The notes under the pieces: generated by a model
The model's database searches: none
Seen by the model: the letters and a program-made list of their open reading frames with translations, nothing else
Told to the model about the DNA's origin: nothing
Position numbers and translations under genes: made by a program
Source of the DNA: a virus
Taxonomy: Duplodnaviria; Caudoviricetes
IMG/VR virus record: IMGVR_UViG_3300029914_000023
Coordinates: 908 to 64,907 of that record
DNA: 64,000 nucleotides
Direction: 5' to 3' (one strand)
Part shown: positions 27,378 through 64,000 of the stretch, piece by piece
How the letters are laid out: the number at the start of each line of letters is the position of its first letter
Numbering within the stretch: position 1 is the first letter of the stretch

Positions 27378-27451
27378 TGGCTCCCTCCCCACGACTCGAA
27401 CGTGGATTCGCGGCTCCAAAGACCGCTGTCCTACCATTAGACGAAAAGGGA
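27378..27451 (-). tRNA. tRNA-Gln(TTG)
   Basis: Cloverleaf; loop CT-TTG-GA; TTCGAG T-loop; encoded CCA. Confidence 0.9.
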
Positions 27452-27452
27452 A

Positions 27453-27529
27453 TGGTCTGGATGGAGTGATTTGAACACTCGTGGTCTCGCTCCCAAAGCG
27501 AGTGCGTGACCGGGCTACGCTACGTCCAG
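27453..27529 (-). tRNA. tRNA-Pro(TGG)
   Basis: Cloverleaf; loop TT-TGG-GA; encoded CCA. Confidence 0.9.
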
Positions 27530-28533: not shown

Positions 28534-28608
28534 TGGAGCCGTCGGCCCGACTTGAACGGGTAACCGTCTGATTACAGATCAGATGCTCTACCATTGAGCT
28601 ACGACGGC
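28534..28608 (-). tRNA. tRNA-Thr(TGT)
   Basis: Cloverleaf; loop TC-TGT-AA; encoded CCA. Confidence 0.85.
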
Positions 28609-44333: not shown

Positions 44334-44475
44334 ATTGGGTGGAACAGGCGTAGCAGTAACGTAGCGCTTTGCCAATTAAGCTACAGTCCCCATTGATTTT
44401 GGGGGGACCGACAGGACTCGAACCTGCAATCTCTCTATTAACAGTAGAAGTAACTGCCACTATCACCAACCCAAT
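44334..44475 (-). ncRNA. YrlA-like Y RNA containing a circularly permuted tRNA domain
   Basis: Terminal stem AUUGGGU/ACCCAAU plus GUGGCAGU/ACUGCUAC encloses an anticodon-like arm, T arm (GCAGG-UUCGAGU-CCUGU), loop-closed acceptor stem (CGGUCCCC/GGGGACUG) and D arm. Confidence 0.85.
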
Positions 44476-46069: not shown

Positions 46070-46144
46070 TGGGGTGTACGGCAGGGGTCGAACCTGCATG
46101 ATCGAGTGCCACAGACTCGCGCCTTACCGGTCGGCCACGCACAC
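46070..46144 (-). tRNA. tRNA-His(GTG)
   Basis: Loop CT-GTG-GC; GGTTCGAC T-loop; C73 and CCA. Confidence 0.9.
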
Positions 46145-48817: not shown

Positions 48818-49830
48818 GGTGGTGCAATCGTCAAGCTAGTTAAAAAAACAATTTTACGAGGATGTAAATCAGGAGCCCCACGGTTATCTCGATTCCCAAA
48901 CCGTTTATGCATCCTATCAGCGGGTGATTCTCATATTTGACAGGAGTCATATGTGTACCTCCCGCACCATAGGATGAAAACGACCGTCTTCGATGTAAGA
49001 CAGACGGGTTATTGTACCGGGCTTGGCGGCACGATGTAGCTTGCCGATTGCACCCTCGATGCTATCCTTCGTGGCCATCAGACTGTACTTCTTGCCCGGC
49101 TCACGGCGTTCGATAGCAAACGTGGCAGCACGGGGGTACGACACCACCCGACTACCGAGAACTGCTTGGAATTGCATGAGTGTCTCCTCTCACCGGTTCC
49201 GTTTGATGTAGTCAGCAACGGCTTGTTGCATGTCGTTGCGTGCTTGCTCTTCCATCCGCTGCTTGCGTGCTTCACGCATACGCAGGTAGATGTAAAGCAG
49301 TGTGAATGCAATGAGGCCCATCCACACGTCGTCCATAGCTAGGCGGCTTTCTTGCTCTTGTCCGCCCACTGAACGTGGTGGTGAATCTCACCCTTGGTGG
49401 CAGGCTCGGAAGCCAGCGAGCCAAGGCGGAAACGAACCATGCAACCGTTGGATGCGTCACGCTTGCTAATGGGAAGCAGCGTGAGTTGTCCGGCATCGGC
49501 TGCCCGTACAACTGACTGTGCAAATGCTGTCATGTCCATGTTGTCTCCTCTCCCTCTGCGTCCACCGACGGGCTTGGGACCGTCTCGCCGCATTGCGTAG
49601 GGGATTGCTCCCCTACTTTGGTTAACCGAGGAAGTGTCCTCCCTCATGCTCTTCGTTGTGGTCACCCGTATCCACGCTGGTACTCGTGGACATGAAACGC
49701 CGCCCGTTCTCATGCAGCATGTCACGTACAACCGCTTCAGCAATGTTCACGCTATCAGCGATAACGTACTCGGTTAAAGGTGCGCCATCTCCGTTCACAA
49801 CCACCTTGTACCTCACTTTCAACTCCCCGC

Positions 49831-60777: not shown

Positions 60778-61665
60778 ATGACAGTACAGAATACCAGCCA
60801 GAGCACCGTGTTTGATTTTAGCGATGCGCCTGGTGGCGATTTGAATCTGGACGACATTTTCGGGGAGAATGCTCCAGCGCCGACAACGACGGAAATCAAC
60901 CCCAATCCGCAACCGACTATCACGGAGACAACTCCGCCCTCTACTGAACCAGTCATCAAGACGAAGACCGGGACAGTGTACAAGTCGATTGACGACGCCG
61001 TTCAGGGCATTGAGCACAAAGATGCGCTCATCGCCCAGCTTCGGGAACAAGTAAAGCAGCAGACGGGGGCAGACCCGCTCGCTGCACGGAAACCTGCATC
61101 GACACCCCAGCCTGACGGTCCAAAGAGCTACATCGAGGACCAGGAAAAATACTTCGAGGACATCGCTGACGCGGTAGCTAAGAAGGACACCAAGGCTTAT
61201 ATGAATGCACAGCAGAAGCTGATCTGGGATAGTCTAGGACCATTGGCTCCAACTATTACGGCTTTGTCTAAAGCTAATGCAGAGCGTGTCGTTGTGCAAG
61301 AGATTCCAGACTTTAGGGGCTTCCTTGGGTCAGAGCAGTTCAATCAGCTTGACCAATACAGCCCTCTTCTGGCAGACGCTATCCGCACGGCGGAGATGAA
61401 TCCGCAAGCGGCCAGCCAGCTACCAGAGCTTTATAAGGTCGCGTATCTTGCAACTCAGGGCCGTCGAGTCCCGGAACTACTTCAATCCGCGCGGGCAGAA
61501 ACTGCTCCCCCGGTTCAACCTCGACCTACGGTTCATTCCACTCAGATTACTCCACCGCCAACTACAGGGGTACAGCAAGTACAACCGAGTTTGGATACTA
61601 AAGAAGGCCGACAGGCCCTTATTAAGCAAATGGAAGCAAATGACATTGGAAACCGTAGATGGTAA
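60778..61665 (+). CDS. Capsid scaffolding protein
   Basis: Acidic, P/T-rich, helical; precedes capsid gene. Confidence 0.7.
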   Translation: MTVQNTSQSTVFDFSDAPGGDLNLDDIFGENAPAPTTTEINPNPQPTITETTPPSTEPVIKTKTGTVYKSIDDAVQGIEHKDALIAQLREQVKQQTGADPLAARKPASTPQPDGPKSYIEDQEKYFEDIADAVAKKDTKAYMNAQQKLIWDSLGPLAPTITALSKANAERVVVQEIPDFRGFLGSEQFNQLDQYSPLLADAIRTAEMNPQAASQLPELYKVAYLATQGRRVPELLQSARAETAPPVQPRPTVHSTQITPPPTTGVQQVQPSLDTKEGRQALIKQMEANDIGNRRW

Positions 61666-61680
61666 CATCTAAGGTAAATC

Positions 61681-63352
61681 ATGCTTAAGAATTTTTTGAA
61701 TTTCGCGTTCGGCCTTCTGGGTATGGGCGCTGACGTTGTAACTGTTACGACTGGTACTGCTGGCAACTCTGGCAACGTGGCAGCCGATCTACAGACTTAC
61801 TTCAGTGCGAAGCTACTGGAAGTCGCCGAGCTTAATACAATCCTGGATAACTAATTGGTCCAGATCGAATTGTCTGAATAATGCAATTTGGCGAGAAGGC
61901 CCCTGTGCCTAGCAACTCGTCTAAGACGATTCAGTTCGTTTAACAACATGGACGAACTTAAATTTCGCGGTATGCGAGAACCTCCTAAAACCTTTTGTCC
62001 TAATAGCGGCAAAATCAAAAGGATATTACAATGGACGATTCGCAGGCAACCTGCAAGTGGGCCTATTTAGCGGGCCTGATATTGGGAGATGGTTTTATCT
62101 CCATGATCCCTTATAGTAATCACAAGAAAAGTTCTTCTGGATTTACAGCCATTAGACCTCTTGTTTGTTTTACTAATGAGGATGCAACTATTATCAAATC
62201 AGTTACTGACTGGTATGACGAGAATGGCATAAAGTATTATTTGGAAACTAGAAATAATCAAGGATTGAGCAAGCGCCCTATCATGAATATTTCAGTTCTT
62301 CGTTTCGACTCTGTGACAACTATTCTAACAAACATGATTCCGTGGCTTGTTGGAGATAAGAAAGCCAGAGCAGAACTTCTTCTTCGGTATGTAGCGAAAG
62401 AACGAAGAGGTCGGAGAGAGTTCGATCCAGATGATGCAGAGATTATCAAAGCTTTTCTAGCGGTATCGCCTAATGCTAGAAAAGGAAAGCCCACACGACT
62501 TGCAGAAGTCCTCAGAGACTATGAGCGAAACTCGGGAGACCGAGATGATATAGCCCGATCTGCTTAGAGATATGCAGAGTCTAGCAGAAATGCCTAGACC
62601 TCTCGTAAGAGAGTAACAACAATGCGTGAAGAGAAATTTTCAACTTCCGCAACTCCTACTCAGTTGACCGAGGGTTTGCCCCCCGATGCAGTCGGGCTAA
62701 CTTTGAATCAATTCGACGCAATAATGGAGCAATACGGATTTTTAACGCGTATTTCGGACTTGGCGGAATTGACCGCGAAGCACCCTGTTGTTCAACGTAC
62801 CATGCACCTGCTTTCCTTGCAGGCCGCAGAAACGTACGATCAACTTATCTTCAATGTTTTGAACGCCGGAACACAGACGTTCTTCCCCAACAGCCGCGCC
62901 GGTATTAGCAGCGTACTCCCAACCGATCTTCCCAACTACAACGATCTGACATCCATCGAAGCTACGCTTCAGACTCTGGGTGCTCGTGGTCTTGAGGGTG
63001 GGGATTACGTGGCTGTCATGGCCCCCAACGCATACAACGCGCTCCTACGCGATCCTGACTGGAAGGCGTCTCACGCCCTAAGTTCTCCGGACAAGATTTG
63101 GCGTGGCGAGGTCGATGCGCTGGCTGGTATCCGTGTGGTCCGGTCGAACGCTCCTGGCTTCCTGCCTTACACCGGCAACGTGACAACTGGCACATCTACC
63201 AAGGTGTACTCCAGCTTCGTTATCGGTCGTTACGCATACCAGATCAGCGACCTGCAAAACCTCCGGGTTTATGTGGTTGCTCCTGGTGGTCAGACTGACC
63301 CGCTGCAACAGTCCCGCAAGTTGGGTTGGAAGTTCGCTTTCAAGGCGATCAT
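61681..63352 (+). CDS. Major capsid protein (N4 gp56-like); exons 61681-61848, 61884-61940, 62625-63352, continuing beyond window
   Basis: Joined exons read ...ELNTILD-QFGEKAPVPSNSSKTIQFV-REEKF...LTEG...QYG...GEV...G.R...DPLQQ...GWK. Confidence 0.85.
61849..61883 (+). other. 35-nt group-I-like mini-intron lacking a catalytic core
   Basis: Exon ends in U; CUGGAU/GUCCAG P1 with U-G pair; ends in G; removal restores the reading frame. Confidence 0.7.
61941..62624 (+). mobile_element. Group I intron 2 of the capsid gene
   Basis: P1 AGUUCGUU/GACGAACU; R (AGAGACUA) and S (GAUAUAGCCC) elements; terminal G; encodes a LAGLIDADG ORF. Confidence 0.9.
62031..62567 (+). CDS. LAGLIDADG homing endonuclease
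   Basis: WAYLAGLILGDGFI. Confidence 0.9.
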   Translation: MDDSQATCKWAYLAGLILGDGFISMIPYSNHKKSSSGFTAIRPLVCFTNEDATIIKSVTDWYDENGIKYYLETRNNQGLSKRPIMNISVLRFDSVTTILTNMIPWLVGDKKARAELLLRYVAKERRGRREFDPDDAEIIKAFLAVSPNARKGKPTRLAEVLRDYERNSGDRDDIARSA

Positions 63353-64000
63353 TAAAAAGGTCCTACGCTATTTCAGCTAGGGTCTTGTGGTGACCTTATA
63401 GAGGAATCTATATTGAATAACATGGCTATTTCGGAAAACCTCTCTGTATTGAGACAATTCCGAGGAAAGGCCCTCTGGACTGCATTAGCCGTACTCCTTG
63501 ACGGAGAAGGCTGCATTTCGATCCTAAAGAACAATCGTCCTGCTCCTCTACTCGTTCAATATTCAGTGAATTTGAATTTTACGAATACGAATGGTGAGTG
63601 GTTAGAAGCATGGCGACAACGACTGGAAAAAGGAAATCTCTTTACGCTAGAACAGCCTAAAGAGAGGAACTGGAAAGCTCGTTATAACTGGATTGTTGCA
63701 GACAAAGCTAGTGTAGTTTACATCCTGAAAAAGATTCAACCGTACTTGATTTGTAAGCGCGAACAAGCGCAAGTCGCAATCGACTTTATCCAAAATAAGG
63801 TGGTTCTACCTTTTGGAGAACGCAATCACGTGAGACCTTCCGAGTTGGAGCTAACTCGACGGGAAGAACTTTACAACAGAATGCGGCAGCTTAATAAAAA
63901 AGGCCGAAGGGAATCCGTAGAGACTATACGCCAAGACCCCAGAACGGGGTGTGATATAGTCCGTTCTCCTGAGCAACCAGGAGCGCAAGACGCTAACGTT
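63353..64000 (+). mobile_element. Group I intron 3 of the capsid gene (3' end beyond window)
   Basis: AUCAU/GUGGU P1; AGAGACUAUA and GAUAUAGUCC core elements near window end. Confidence 0.85.
63422..64000 (+). CDS. LAGLIDADG homing endonuclease (runs off window)
   Basis: ATG 63422; LWTALAVLLDGEGCI; IQPYLICKREQA. Confidence 0.85.
   Translation, partial: MAISENLSVLRQFRGKALWTALAVLLDGEGCISILKNNRPAPLLVQYSVNLNFTNTNGEWLEAWRQRLEKGNLFTLEQPKERNWKARYNWIVADKASVVYILKKIQPYLICKREQAQVAIDFIQNKVVLPFGERNHVRPSELELTRREELYNRMRQLNKKGRRESVETIRQDPRTGCDIVRSPEQPGAQDANV

What the first reader, a model, noticed from the sequence alone, without database searches (positions are those of the whole stretch)
61849..61883. 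35-nt core-less group-I-like mini-intron in the essential capsid gene
Seen: AACTAATTGGTCCAGATCGAATTGTCTGAATAATG interrupts ...ILD|QFG..., adding an in-frame TAA and a frameshift. It has a P1 with the U-G splice pair (CUGGAU/GUCCAG), P10 potential (AAUUG/CAAUU), a small hairpin and a 3' end (AAUAAUG) like that of intron 2 (AACAAUG), but no P3-P8 core. A full group I intron starts 57 nt downstream. Known: group I cores can act on P1 substrates in trans. Inference: a satellite intron spliced by the neighbouring ribozyme, which capsid synthesis would require.
Basis: partly seen in the sequence, partly recalled or inferred. Interest (0 to 1): 0.9.

Follow-up and report, generated by a model that had tools for sequence, protein, structure and literature searches.

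The report
Core-less group I mini-intron in capsid gene
A 35-base leftover of a self-splicing intron interrupts a peat phage's only major capsid gene, keeping just the splice-site pairings and no catalytic core, so it probably relies on a neighbouring intron's ribozyme for removal, although that splicing has not yet been seen in RNA.

Summary
Bases 61849-61883 interrupt ILD|QFG in the single N4-gp56-family major capsid gene of a complete 64.9-kb phage genome. They add an in-frame TAA and a +2 frame shift.

The insert is real DNA. A contig from another sample spans it without differences, and a diverged relative (L036) carries a homologous 38-nt insert.

It is an internally deleted group I intron. 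Relatives hold full introns of 557-570 nt with a LAGLIDADG gene, or compact inserts of 203 and 158 nt, at exactly this site.

Three elements survive:
- a 6-7 bp P1 closed by the U.G splice pair;
- a 5-bp P10 guide;
- a terminal G.

Both helices show compensatory changes between the window and L036. All capsid exons have dN/dS near 0.05 while synonymous sites are saturated.

A second, independent 34-nt mini-insert of the same design sits at another capsid site (L031). It lies 50 nt upstream of a full intron; here the distance is 57 nt.

Best reading (about 0.55): the insert is excised by group I chemistry, with the core supplied by intron 2, in cis or as free RNA.

Excision itself is not shown. 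No RNA contig crosses the insert. Matched-codon bypass and a single frameshift fail on the sequence. Restart at the terminal ATG remains a weaker rival.

The parts
61681..61848 (+). Capsid exon 1 (...AELNTILD). The true start may be the ATG at 61723, because relatives begin at the residues equivalent to MGADVV.
   Evidence: ORF; homology to P0001/P0006/P0122; dN/dS 0.059 against L036.
61843..61848 (+). P1 5' strand (CUGGAU). The last U is the splice-site U of the U.G pair.
   Evidence: Covariation with the guide across 7 same-site elements: 95.9% of cells paired, 2 pairs changed on both sides, U.G in 7 of 7.
61849..61883 (+). 35-nt core-less mini-intron. It begins AAC TAA (in-frame stop) and ends AUG, with G 61883 as the terminal guanosine.
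   Evidence: No Rfam match over it.
61853..61857 (+). P10 guide AAUUG, the last 5 nt of the P1 loop. It is complementary to the first 5 nt of exon 2.
   Evidence: In L036 the pair is AACUG/CAGUU, a change on both sides.
61858..61863 (+). P1 3' strand, the internal guide GUCCAG.
61864..61882 (+). Tail with no assigned pairing. It diverges more between the window and L036 than the P1/P10 block and the last 6 nt.
   Evidence: in the alignment printed there, my hand count is 5 substitutions and 3 indel nt in the middle. The script itself gives 3 differences in the first 15 nt and 0 in the last 6.
61884..61940 (+). Capsid exon 2 (QFGEKAPVPSNSSKTIQFV, 57 nt). Its first 5 nt, CAAUU, form the exon strand of P10.
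   Evidence: Against L036: 12 nt differences, 1 amino-acid change, dN/dS 0.052.
61941..62624 (+). Intron 2, a full group I intron of 684 nt and the candidate helper. P1 is AGUUCGUU/GACGAACU with U.G, and the intron ends ...CAAUG.
   Evidence: Weak Rfam Intron_gpI match at 62372-62577 (17 bits, E 0.31); core motif at 62515; first 90 nt differ at 3 positions from L036; P1/P10. Its own splicing was not seen in RNA contigs.
62031..62567 (+). LAGLIDADG-type homing endonuclease ORF inside intron 2. The assignment rests on the LAGLILGDG motif read in the translation; no Pfam or NCBIfam family reached threshold.
   Evidence: ORF; 0 families; against L036 pS 0.717 and pN 0.067.
62625..63352 (+). Capsid exon 3.
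   Evidence: Pfam Phage_capsid_4. The full-length relative P0006 matches TIGR04387, N4-gp56 major capsid, at 144.5 bits against a cutoff of 60. dN/dS 0.046.
63353..64000 (+). Intron 3, a group I intron with a LAGLIDADG ORF. It runs 20 nt past the window end, to genome C1:147; exon 4 starts at C1:148.
   Evidence: Splicing shown in RNA: exon 3 contigs of X8, X9 and X10 continue at 63352 into the exon 4 sequence, and X10 has a circle joint..

Best explanation
The 35 nt are what remains of a mobile group I intron that once occupied the ILD|QFG site of the major capsid gene. An internal deletion removed the endonuclease gene and the whole catalytic core (P3-P9).

Only the substrate elements are left: a P1 hairpin that presents the splice-site U in a U.G pair, a 5-nt P10 guide in the P1 loop that aligns exon 2, and the terminal G.

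Shown: the derivation, the selective maintenance of these elements, and a capsid gene that stays under strong purifying selection.

Inferred: the insert is removed from the pre-mRNA by the usual two group I transesterifications, carried out by a core it no longer has. The most likely donor is intron 2, 57 nt downstream, acting on the same transcript or as free excised RNA. Intron 3 is the only other candidate in the genome.

On this reading, full-length capsid protein requires two splices that depend on one ribozyme.
For: (1) Origin. At the identical site, relatives carry full introns of 557-570 nt with a LAGLIDADG ORF (L042, L049, L085), a 203-nt insert (L065/66) and a 158-nt insert (L064). 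The last two match Rfam Intron_gpI at E 5e-7 and 2e-6. Their 5' ends align with the mini-insert.

(2) Splice-site elements. P1 with U.G, P10 and a terminal G fall exactly at the borders defined by protein homology. There is 1 hit in the window against 0.14 expected.

(3) Selection on the RNA pairings.
- The window and L036 mini-inserts align over their whole length.
- Synonymous sites of the flanking exons and of the intron-2 ORF are saturated (pS about 0.61-0.72; dS 1.3-2.3).
- The first 15 and last 6 nt of the insert differ at only 3 of 21 positions (binomial P 2e-5 at p = 0.6).
- Two of those three are matched by synonymous exon changes that restore pairing: CUG/CAG versus CUC/GAG in P1, and AAUUG/CAAUU versus AACUG/CAGUU in P10.

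(4) The gene is alive. dN/dS is 0.059, 0.052 and 0.046 for exons 1, 2 and 3. There is a single capsid gene in the genome. The genome closes, with a 127-nt terminal overlap. 9 of the 24 listed runs hold at least half of the sampled words of the stretch, of which only X3, X8, X9 and X10 were laid and confirmed. RNA contigs of three studies match the stretch at 99% or more, apart from one short X8 contig in intron 3.

(5) Association with a helper.
- Among 80 distinct capsid gene strings, 19 are interrupted and 2 have a mini-insert.
- Each mini-insert lies 50-57 nt upstream of a full intron.
- The L031 mini-insert is at a different site (q118). It has the same design: a 7-bp P1 with U.G, a 9-nt loop, a 6-bp P10 and a terminal G.
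- The q60 intron is found only in the two genomes that carry the q41 mini-insert.

(6) Group I ribozymes of this phage are active in nature. Intron 3 is spliced in three RNA runs.

(7) Feasibility. An engineered group I ribozyme removes an intron in trans (PMC4094466, abstract read).
Against: - No RNA molecule with the GAT|CAA junction was seen.
- In all three RNA runs the exon 3 contigs continue upstream into the last 52-157 nt of intron 2. Two RNA contigs (X8, X10) run from exon 2 across the intron 2 5' splice site. No contig shows the exon 2-exon 3 junction either. Unspliced RNA, or DNA in these libraries, is therefore what was assembled there.
- Only two or three mini-inserts are known, so the link to a neighbouring intron rests on two independent sites.
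- The window and L036 inserts both end in ATG in frame with exon 2. That fits a restart as well.
- Very close relatives lack both the insert and intron 2 (P0122-P0124), so the state is not fixed.
- The recall-based claim that a group I core accepts a self-contained P1 hairpin together with an unlinked terminal G was not tested here.
Confidence: 0.55

Rival explanations
1. Split gene with restart. Translation stops at TAA 61852-54 and restarts at ATG 61881-83. The capsid protein is then made as a 57-residue N-arm peptide plus an M-QFGEK... chain (after intron 2 splicing) that assemble non-covalently. The insert is never removed.
For: Both the window and L036 inserts end in ATG in frame with exon 2. 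The stop and the start are 26-29 nt apart. The low-confidence model puts the junction at the end of the N-arm helix. Purifying selection on exons 1 and 2 would also be expected under this reading.
Against: It gives no reason for the compensatory maintenance of P1 and especially P10. No Shine-Dalgarno-like motif precedes ATG 61881, although the test was weak because the capsid start has none either. The L031 mini-insert has no ATG, GTG or TTG between its in-frame TAA and the next exon (sequence read), so a restart cannot be the general solution. All 61 uninterrupted relatives encode one chain.
Confidence: 0.12
2. Ribosomal recoding. The ribosome bypasses the 35 nt as in T4 gene 60, or shifts frame twice, helped by the hairpin at the take-off site.
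For: It is a short untranslated gap in an essential phage gene. A hairpin includes the last sense codons, a stop lies one codon after GAT, and homing endonucleases are nearby. These features recall the gene 60 cassette (bioRxiv 10.1101/2022.08.31.505936, listing and abstract start only).
Against: In the exon 2 frame the codons before CAA are TGA ATA ATG, and GGG ATA ATG in L036. No GAY or AAY landing codon lies in frame for a peptidyl-tRNA leaving GAU or AAC/AAU. A single frameshift is impossible, because the exon 1 frame stops at 61852 before the last stop of the exon 2 frame at 61875-77. A double +1 shift would add about 12 residues that no relative has. The P10 pairing and terminal G have no role in bypassing.
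Confidence: 0.05
3. Dead relic. The insert is not removed, the capsid gene is broken, and the assembled genomes are defective or depend on co-infecting relatives for capsid protein.
For: No spliced RNA was seen. Insert-free close relatives coexist in public data. The genome is a metagenome assembly, not an isolate.
Against: Two lineages that differ at saturated synonymous sites share a homologous insert, yet all exons are open with dN/dS near 0.05. The P1/P10 pairings were repaired by double changes. The intron-2 endonuclease ORF and ribozyme are also conserved. 9 of 24 listed runs hold at least half of the sampled words (only four runs were laid), and RNA libraries of three studies contain the stretch.
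Confidence: 0.08
4. RNA-level removal by a different catalyst. A protein endonuclease plus an RNA ligase (tRNA- or HAC1-like cut-and-join) recognises the hairpin, without any group I core.
For: Only that a short structured insert must be removed and that no core is present in cis.
Against: No bulge-helix-bulge or twin-loop motif was seen in the folds. The conserved features are exactly those read by a group I core: the U.G pair, the P10 guide next to the P1 strand, and the terminal G. Both independent mini-inserts neighbour a full intron.
Confidence: 0.05

Closest known systems
Self-splicing group I introns with homing endonuclease genes in phage structural genes, for example the mycobacteriophage LittleE capsid and BAKA tail introns (PMC3706429, passages read); T4 td/nrdB and Twort orf142 are recalled
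   Same: 5' exon ending in U paired with G in P1; a P10 guide in the same hairpin; a terminal G; a stop codon just inside the 5' border; and the same insertion site as full introns in relatives.
   Different: No P3-P9 core and no G-binding helix, in only 35 nt. It cannot be self-splicing. The smallest same-site relative that still matches the Rfam core is 158 nt.
Engineered group I 'spliceozyme' and trans-splicing ribozymes (PMC4094466, abstract read; PMC2588497 and PMC2709566, listing only)
   Same: A group I core removes an intron it is not part of, recognising both splice sites by base pairing.
   Different: Those are designed, and the guide sequences sit on the ribozyme. Here the case is natural, the guide (P1 3' strand plus P10) sits on the mini-intron itself, and the presumed ribozyme is another intron of the same transcript.
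Euglena chloroplast group III introns, which are degenerate group II introns
   Same: Introns of a self-splicing class reduced to about 100 nt or less, keeping the boundary elements and presumed to rely on catalytic parts supplied in trans.
   Different: A different intron class and chemistry, and an organelle rather than a phage. As far as my searches reach, no group I counterpart has been described.
T4 gene 60 50-nt translational bypass element (bioRxiv 10.1101/2022.08.31.505936 and PMC3014915, listing only; details recalled)
   Same: A short non-coding gap in an essential phage gene, a hairpin at the 5' edge, a nearby stop codon, and a link to homing-endonuclease traffic.
   Different: No matched take-off and landing codons in frame. 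The features present are P1/P10 and a terminal G, and the ancestry is a group I intron.
Deletion derivatives of the Streptococcus thermophilus phage lysin intron (Foley et al. 2000, seen only as a reference-list entry; content recalled)
   Same: Natural internal deletions of a phage group I intron.
   Different: As I recall, those deletions remove the ORF and leave the ribozyme self-splicing. Here the ribozyme itself is gone.

Membership tests
Group I intron (self-splicing ribozyme) | P1 helix between the 5' exon end and an internal guide, with U.G at the 5' splice site | tested here: met
   CUGGAU/GUCCAG, 6 bp with a terminal U.G. It is predicted in the minimum-energy fold. U.G is present in 7 of 7 same-site elements and 2 pairs covary.
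Group I intron (self-splicing ribozyme) | Terminal guanosine at the 3' splice site, and P10 between the guide and the 3' exon | tested here: met
   G 61883. P10 is AAUUG/CAAUU, 5 Watson-Crick pairs, and AACUG/CAGUU in L036.
Group I intron (self-splicing ribozyme) | Conserved catalytic core (P3-P8, P4-P6, P7 with the G-binding site) | tested here: not met
   Only 20 nt lie between P1 and the 3' end. No Rfam Intron_gpI match covers 61849-61883 at E up to 10. Same-site relatives of 158 and 203 nt do match.
Group I intron (self-splicing ribozyme) | Excision and exon ligation in RNA, dependent on guanosine | not testable with these tools
   The single read-laying run gave no RNA contig over the insert. 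Raw reads could not be queried.
Descendant of the mobile intron family at the ILD|QFG site | Same insertion point, and homologous 5' and 3' terminal sequences | tested here: met
   The insertion point is identical, and the segment TGGTC.AG plus the upstream loop aligns with L042, L049, L085, L064 and L065.
T4 gene 60-type translational bypass element | Matched take-off and landing codons that restore the downstream frame | tested here: not met
   The exon 2 frame upstream of CAA reads TGA ATA ATG, and GGG ATA ATG in L036. There is no in-frame GAY or AAY.
T4 gene 60-type translational bypass element | Stop codon immediately 3' of the take-off codon, and a take-off hairpin | tested here: inconclusive
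   The sequence reads GAT AAC TAA, so the stop follows AAC and not the conserved Asp codon. A hairpin is present, but it is the P1 helix.
N4-gp56 family major capsid protein (the host gene) | Match to TIGR04387 above the curated cutoff, across the interrupted site | tested here: met
   The uninterrupted relative P0006 (86-88% identical) scores 144.5 bits against a cutoff of 60, residues 31-326. Window exon 3 alone scores 26.7 against 27 bits for Pfam PF25209.

The most novel reading that the evidence does not exclude
This would be a natural 'satellite' group I intron. It has given up its ribozyme and keeps only the guide hairpin and terminal G, and it is spliced by the core of another intron in the same gene. 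That is a division of labour between introns, the group I counterpart of the step thought to lead from group II introns to trans-acting splicing machinery. It has been maintained over a long divergence in an essential phage gene and has arisen at least twice.
Probability: 0.5. Interest if true: 0.9.

Novelty: new variant of a known kind. Interest (0 to 1): 0.8.

Why it matters
If the insert is spliced by a borrowed core, it would be the first natural group I intron known to depend on another intron's ribozyme. That would show self-splicing introns can evolve into a substrate-only element plus a shared catalyst, a transition so far argued mainly for group II introns and the spliceosome, and built only by design for group I.

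It would also tie the fate of an essential capsid gene to one ribozyme. It would show how intron-rich phage genes can hide coding continuity from gene callers: here the capsid gene is called as separate fragments.

It gives a simple test system of about 1 kb of RNA for recognition in trans of a P1 hairpin and a terminal G. The mini-insert also destroys the homing site of the full intron at that position, so it may act as cheap immunity against re-invasion. That last point is inference.

Tried and rejected
**RNA evidence.** I laid three metatranscriptome runs (X8, X9, X10) and one DNA run (X3) on 61400-64000.
- No RNA contig covers 61813-61910. The upstream contigs end at 61807 (X8) and 61812 (X9). 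The next ones start at 61911 (X8) and 61916 (X10). X3 covers the stretch.
- This hole gives no verdict on splicing.
- The X8 contig starts exactly 30 nt before the intron 2 5' splice site. That is what a k=31 branch between spliced and unspliced forms would give, but I treat it as no more than a hint.

**Assembly collapse.** Rejected. An X3 contig spans the insert with 0 differences, and L036 has a homologous insert in an independent assembly.

**Matched-codon bypass.** This was my own first idea. It rested on a mis-indexing of codons, and re-reading one search shows no in-frame landing codon. A single frameshift is excluded by the stops at 61852-54 and 61875-77.

**A second capsid gene.** None. 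tblastn of P0006 on the genome finds only the four exon pieces.

**Other cores in the genome.**
- Rfam on the whole window at E up to 1 finds no group I hit.
- A family motif finds only introns 2 and 3.
- Rfam is weak on these ORF-bearing introns: 17 and 13.4 bits.
- Only 1 of 16 related loci reached the gathering score.

**More copies of the mini-insert.**
- The exact 24-mer gave 0 hits in viral contigs.
- A degenerate pattern found only the L036 contig.
- The exon 2 53-mer gave 0 hits.
- An intron 2 30-mer found only the L036 contig.
- The metagenome contigs pattern gave 1 hit, a GC-rich stretch with only a weak chance match (E 0.034) to the capsid query.
- Genome contigs gave one 1961-nt contig of an archaeal MAG, with no host inference possible.
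- The architecture scan of 664 kb of loci found the L031 and L036 mini-inserts plus one hit on the antisense strand of an uninterrupted capsid gene. About 1.5 chance hits were expected.

**DNA I could not fetch.** Proteins P0016, P0040 and P0086 start MREEKF/MREERF. That suggests more q60 introns ending in ATG. Their DNA could not be fetched, so I could not ask whether they also carry a mini-insert.

**Weak or empty tests.**
- The Shine-Dalgarno test for the restart rival was inconclusive.
- A PDB sequence search found nothing.
- The AlphaFold2 model of P0006 had mean pLDDT 60, below 50 over most of residues 14-83, which span the junction. It is too poor to use beyond a hint that the junction lies at the end of a predicted helix.
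- The origin of the middle of the insert stays ambiguous. It can be aligned either with the P3/J3-4 5' segment or with the 3' terminal segment of full-length relatives.

**Literature.** Search terms included 'group I intron' with 'mini-intron', 'degenerate intron', 'truncated intron', 'intron remnant', 'lacks the catalytic core', 'spliced in trans by' and 'exon skipping'. They turned up no natural core-less group I intron. This covers the held library only.
Full report
**Where the window lies.** The window is bases 908-64907 of a single 64,907-bp contig whose ends overlap by 127 nt, so the phage genome is closed. Upstream of the finding lie a portal gene (SU10/P22 portal families) and a 295-residue ORF in the position expected for a scaffold protein (the role is inferred from position only). 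The interrupted gene is the major capsid gene. Its exon 3 hits Pfam Phage_capsid_4. The uninterrupted relative P0006, 86-88% identical, matches NCBIfam TIGR04387 (N4-gp56 family major capsid protein) at 144.5 bits against a cutoff of 60, over residues 31-326. That match runs across the interrupted site. tblastn of P0006 on the genome finds only four exon pieces and no second copy.

**The observation.** One search shows ...ATC CTG GAT | AACTAATTGGTCCAGATCGAATTGTCTGAATAATG | CAA TTT GGC... at 61849-61883.
- Uninterrupted homologues read ...(I/V)LDQFG(E/D)K...: P0001, P0122-P0124, P0004 and P0006.
- The intron-less relative L037 reads CTGGAT|CAGTTT and TTCGTG|CGCGAA at the two junctions.
- The gene structure is therefore: exon 1 61681-61848, insert 61849-61883, exon 2 61884-61940, intron 2 61941-62624 with a LAGLIDADG-type ORF, exon 3 62625-63352, and intron 3 from 63353 across the contig junction to C1:147. 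Exon 4 starts at C1:148.
- The insert brings an in-frame TAA and a +2 shift.
It is exactly the borders defined by homology. The mean in 100 shuffles was 0.14.

**It is real DNA.** A contig of DNA run X3, from a sample other than the likely source, covers 61729-62619 with no difference. 9 of the 24 runs listed hold at least half of the sampled words of the stretch; only four of them were laid.

**What it is.** I mapped the capsid gene in IMG/VR loci with tblastn.
- Of 80 distinct gene strings, 61 are uninterrupted and 19 are interrupted, at a dozen or so sites.
- At the very site of the finding (q41|42) there are full introns of 557-570 nt with a LAGLIDADG ORF (L042, L049, L085), a 203-nt insert (L065/66) and a 158-nt insert (L064).
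- The two short inserts match Rfam Intron_gpI through P3-P9, at E 5e-7 and 2e-6. Both fall below the gathering score.
- The 5' ends of all of these align with the mini-insert.
- The 35 nt are therefore the end point of a size series and an internally deleted group I intron. Only 20 nt separate P1 from the 3' end, and no Rfam match covers them, so the core is gone.

**A homologous insert in a diverged relative.** L036 is 88% identical in exon 3 protein. It has the same layout: a 38-nt insert, a 57-nt exon 2 and a 649-nt intron at q60.
- The two inserts align over their whole length. By my count on the alignment printed there are 8 substitutions and 3 indel nt, which suggests one ancestral deletion.
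- The surrounding sequence is far more diverged at silent sites. pS is about 0.61-0.72 and dS 1.3-2.3 in the exons and in the intron-2 endonuclease ORF. dN/dS is 0.059, 0.052 and 0.046 for exons 1, 2 and 3.
- Within the insert, the first 15 nt (loop plus guide) and the last 6 nt differ at 3 of 21 positions. The binomial P is 2e-5 at a neutral difference of 0.6.
- Two of these three differences are matched by synonymous exon changes that restore pairing. P1 is CUGGAU/GUCCAG against CUCGAU/GUCGAG. P10 is AAUUG/CAAUU against AACUG/CAGUU.
- Across the seven same-site elements, P1 is paired in 95.9% of cells, U.G is invariant, and two pairs change on both sides. Only 2 of 500 shuffles reach the covariation score.
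- The RNA pairings that a group I core reads are thus under selection even though the core is absent. The capsid gene has stayed functional while carrying the insert.

**A second, independent case.** L031 (the same contig as L083) has a 34-nt insert at another capsid site (q118).
- Its layout is exon GGAGCGU | AAUUAUGGU GCGCUCC ...UAAG | ACCAUA....
- That is a 7-bp P1 with U.G, a 9-nt loop whose last nucleotides pair with the next exon over 6 bp, and a terminal G.
- It is followed by a 50-nt exon and a 591-nt intron with a LAGLIDADG ORF.
- Both independent mini-inserts therefore lie 50-57 nt upstream of a full intron.
- By my own estimate, a 60-nt window upstream of one intron in a gene of about 960 nt has roughly a 6% chance per case of holding a randomly placed insert.
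- The q60 intron occurs only in the two genomes that have the q41 mini-insert.
- L064, with the 158-nt insert and no other intron in the gene, still has a core.
- This pattern is what one expects if a core can be lost only where another core is at hand.

**Candidate helpers.** A family motif finds just two cores in the genome, introns 2 and 3, both in the capsid gene.
- The non-coding 5' 90 nt of intron 2 differ at 3 positions from L036. Its ORF has pN 0.067 and pS 0.717, so the ribozyme and the endonuclease are conserved.
- Its P1/P10 hairpin has the same design as the mini-insert: U.G next to a 10-nt loop that carries the P10 guide.
- L036 has no intron 3. That leaves the q60 intron as the only full intron in its capsid gene.

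**RNA data.**
- Intron 3 is spliced in nature. In all three RNA runs the exon 3 contig runs on at 63352 into the exon 4 sequence. One X10 contig joins the intron's last base to its first, a full-length circle form.
- For the insert itself there is no contig, and therefore no verdict (see Tried and rejected).
- Against efficient splicing of intron 2 in these samples: the exon 3 contigs of all three runs continue upstream into the last 52-157 nt of intron 2. Contigs of X8 and X10 run from exon 2 into intron 2. No contig shows the exon 2-exon 3 junction. Contig building can drop short junction paths, and DNA may be present in RNA libraries.

**Mechanism and rivals.**
- The conserved features are the splice-site U.G, a guide that aligns both exons, and a terminal G. 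They are the substrate side of group I splicing. The simplest working model is excision by two transesterifications in a borrowed core. Intron 2 is the best candidate, acting in cis or as excised RNA.
- That group I cores can act on substrates supplied in trans is known from engineered systems (PMC4094466, abstract read; PMC2588497 and PMC2709566, listing only). Whether this core accepts this hairpin is untested.
- Restart at the terminal ATG remains possible for the window and L036. It does not explain the P1/P10 covariation, and it cannot work in L031, which has no start codon.
- Bypass with matched codons and a single frameshift are excluded by the reading frames.
- A dead gene is hard to reconcile with dN/dS near 0.05 in two lineages that share the insert.

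**Novelty.** My literature searches found phage capsid introns of 265-819 nt that splice (PMC3706429, passages read) and engineered trans-acting group I ribozymes. They found no natural group I intron reduced to its splice-site elements. The nearest analogy is recalled and was not checked: the degenerate group II ('group III') introns of Euglena plastids. I rate the finding a new variant of a known kind, of high interest, with the central step (excision by a helper core) still to be shown.

Supplementary files of papers were not available.

Noticed in passing
window 63353-64000 plus genome C1:128-147: Intron 3 is spliced in three metatranscriptome runs: the exon 3 contigs continue into exon 4 at 63352. 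One X10 contig joins the intron's last base back to its first, which looks like a full-length circular intron RNA of 668 nt.
   Followed up: partly
L064:791-948: A 158-nt insert at the same ILD|QFG site matches the Rfam group I model through P3-P9 (30.8 bits, E 2.3e-6, below gathering). It is the only interruption of that capsid gene. If it self-splices it would be an unusually small group I intron.
   Followed up: partly
L031:5355-5388 (= L083:3328-3361): A second mini-insert of 34 nt lies at capsid site q118, with a 7-bp P1, a U.G pair, a 6-bp P10 and a terminal G. It sits 50 nt upstream of a 591-nt LAGLIDADG intron (L031:5439-6029) that resembles window intron 3.
   Followed up: yes
IMG/VR loci L001-L155 (capsid genes): This N4-gp56-family capsid gene is an intron hot spot. 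19 of 80 distinct gene strings are interrupted, at sites near residues 35, 41, 44, 60, 86, 96-106, 111, 118, 132-137, 205, 266-285, 293 and 298-304 of the reference.
   Followed up: partly
window 62330-62573: RNA contigs of three runs end at 62330-62345 inside the intron 2 ORF; in X9 the end at 62345 runs into adapter sequence. Contigs resume at 62468-62573 with higher contig depth through exon 3. This may be a processing site or an internal transcript start, or an assembly effect.
   Followed up: no
L065:3741-3943 (= L066): The 203-nt insert at the ILD|QFG site matches the group I core (E 5e-7). By protein homology it ends ...GTCTA before CAG, so it has no terminal G at the expected 3' border.
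   Followed up: no
proteins P0016, P0040, P0086, P0011 (no DNA available): Three capsid ORFs 65-66% identical to the window start MREEKF/MREERF, as expected downstream of a q60 intron ending in ATG. P0011 starts inside exon 2. Their contigs could not be fetched to look for mini-inserts.
   Followed up: no
window 44336-44469 (-) and 49548-49599 (-): Two sub-threshold Rfam matches: Y RNA-like YrlA (30.6 bits against 69) overlapping a weak tRNA-like hit, and type-P1 twister ribozyme (30.5 bits against 67.2). Four tRNA genes lie at 27381-27529, 28537-28608 and 46073-46144.
   Followed up: no
protein P0135: A capsid homologue of this phage family is filed in NCBI as an unnamed protein of the moss Sphagnum jensenii, on a 54.7-kb contig. 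It is probably phage DNA inside a plant assembly, which fits the peat origin of the runs.
   Followed up: no
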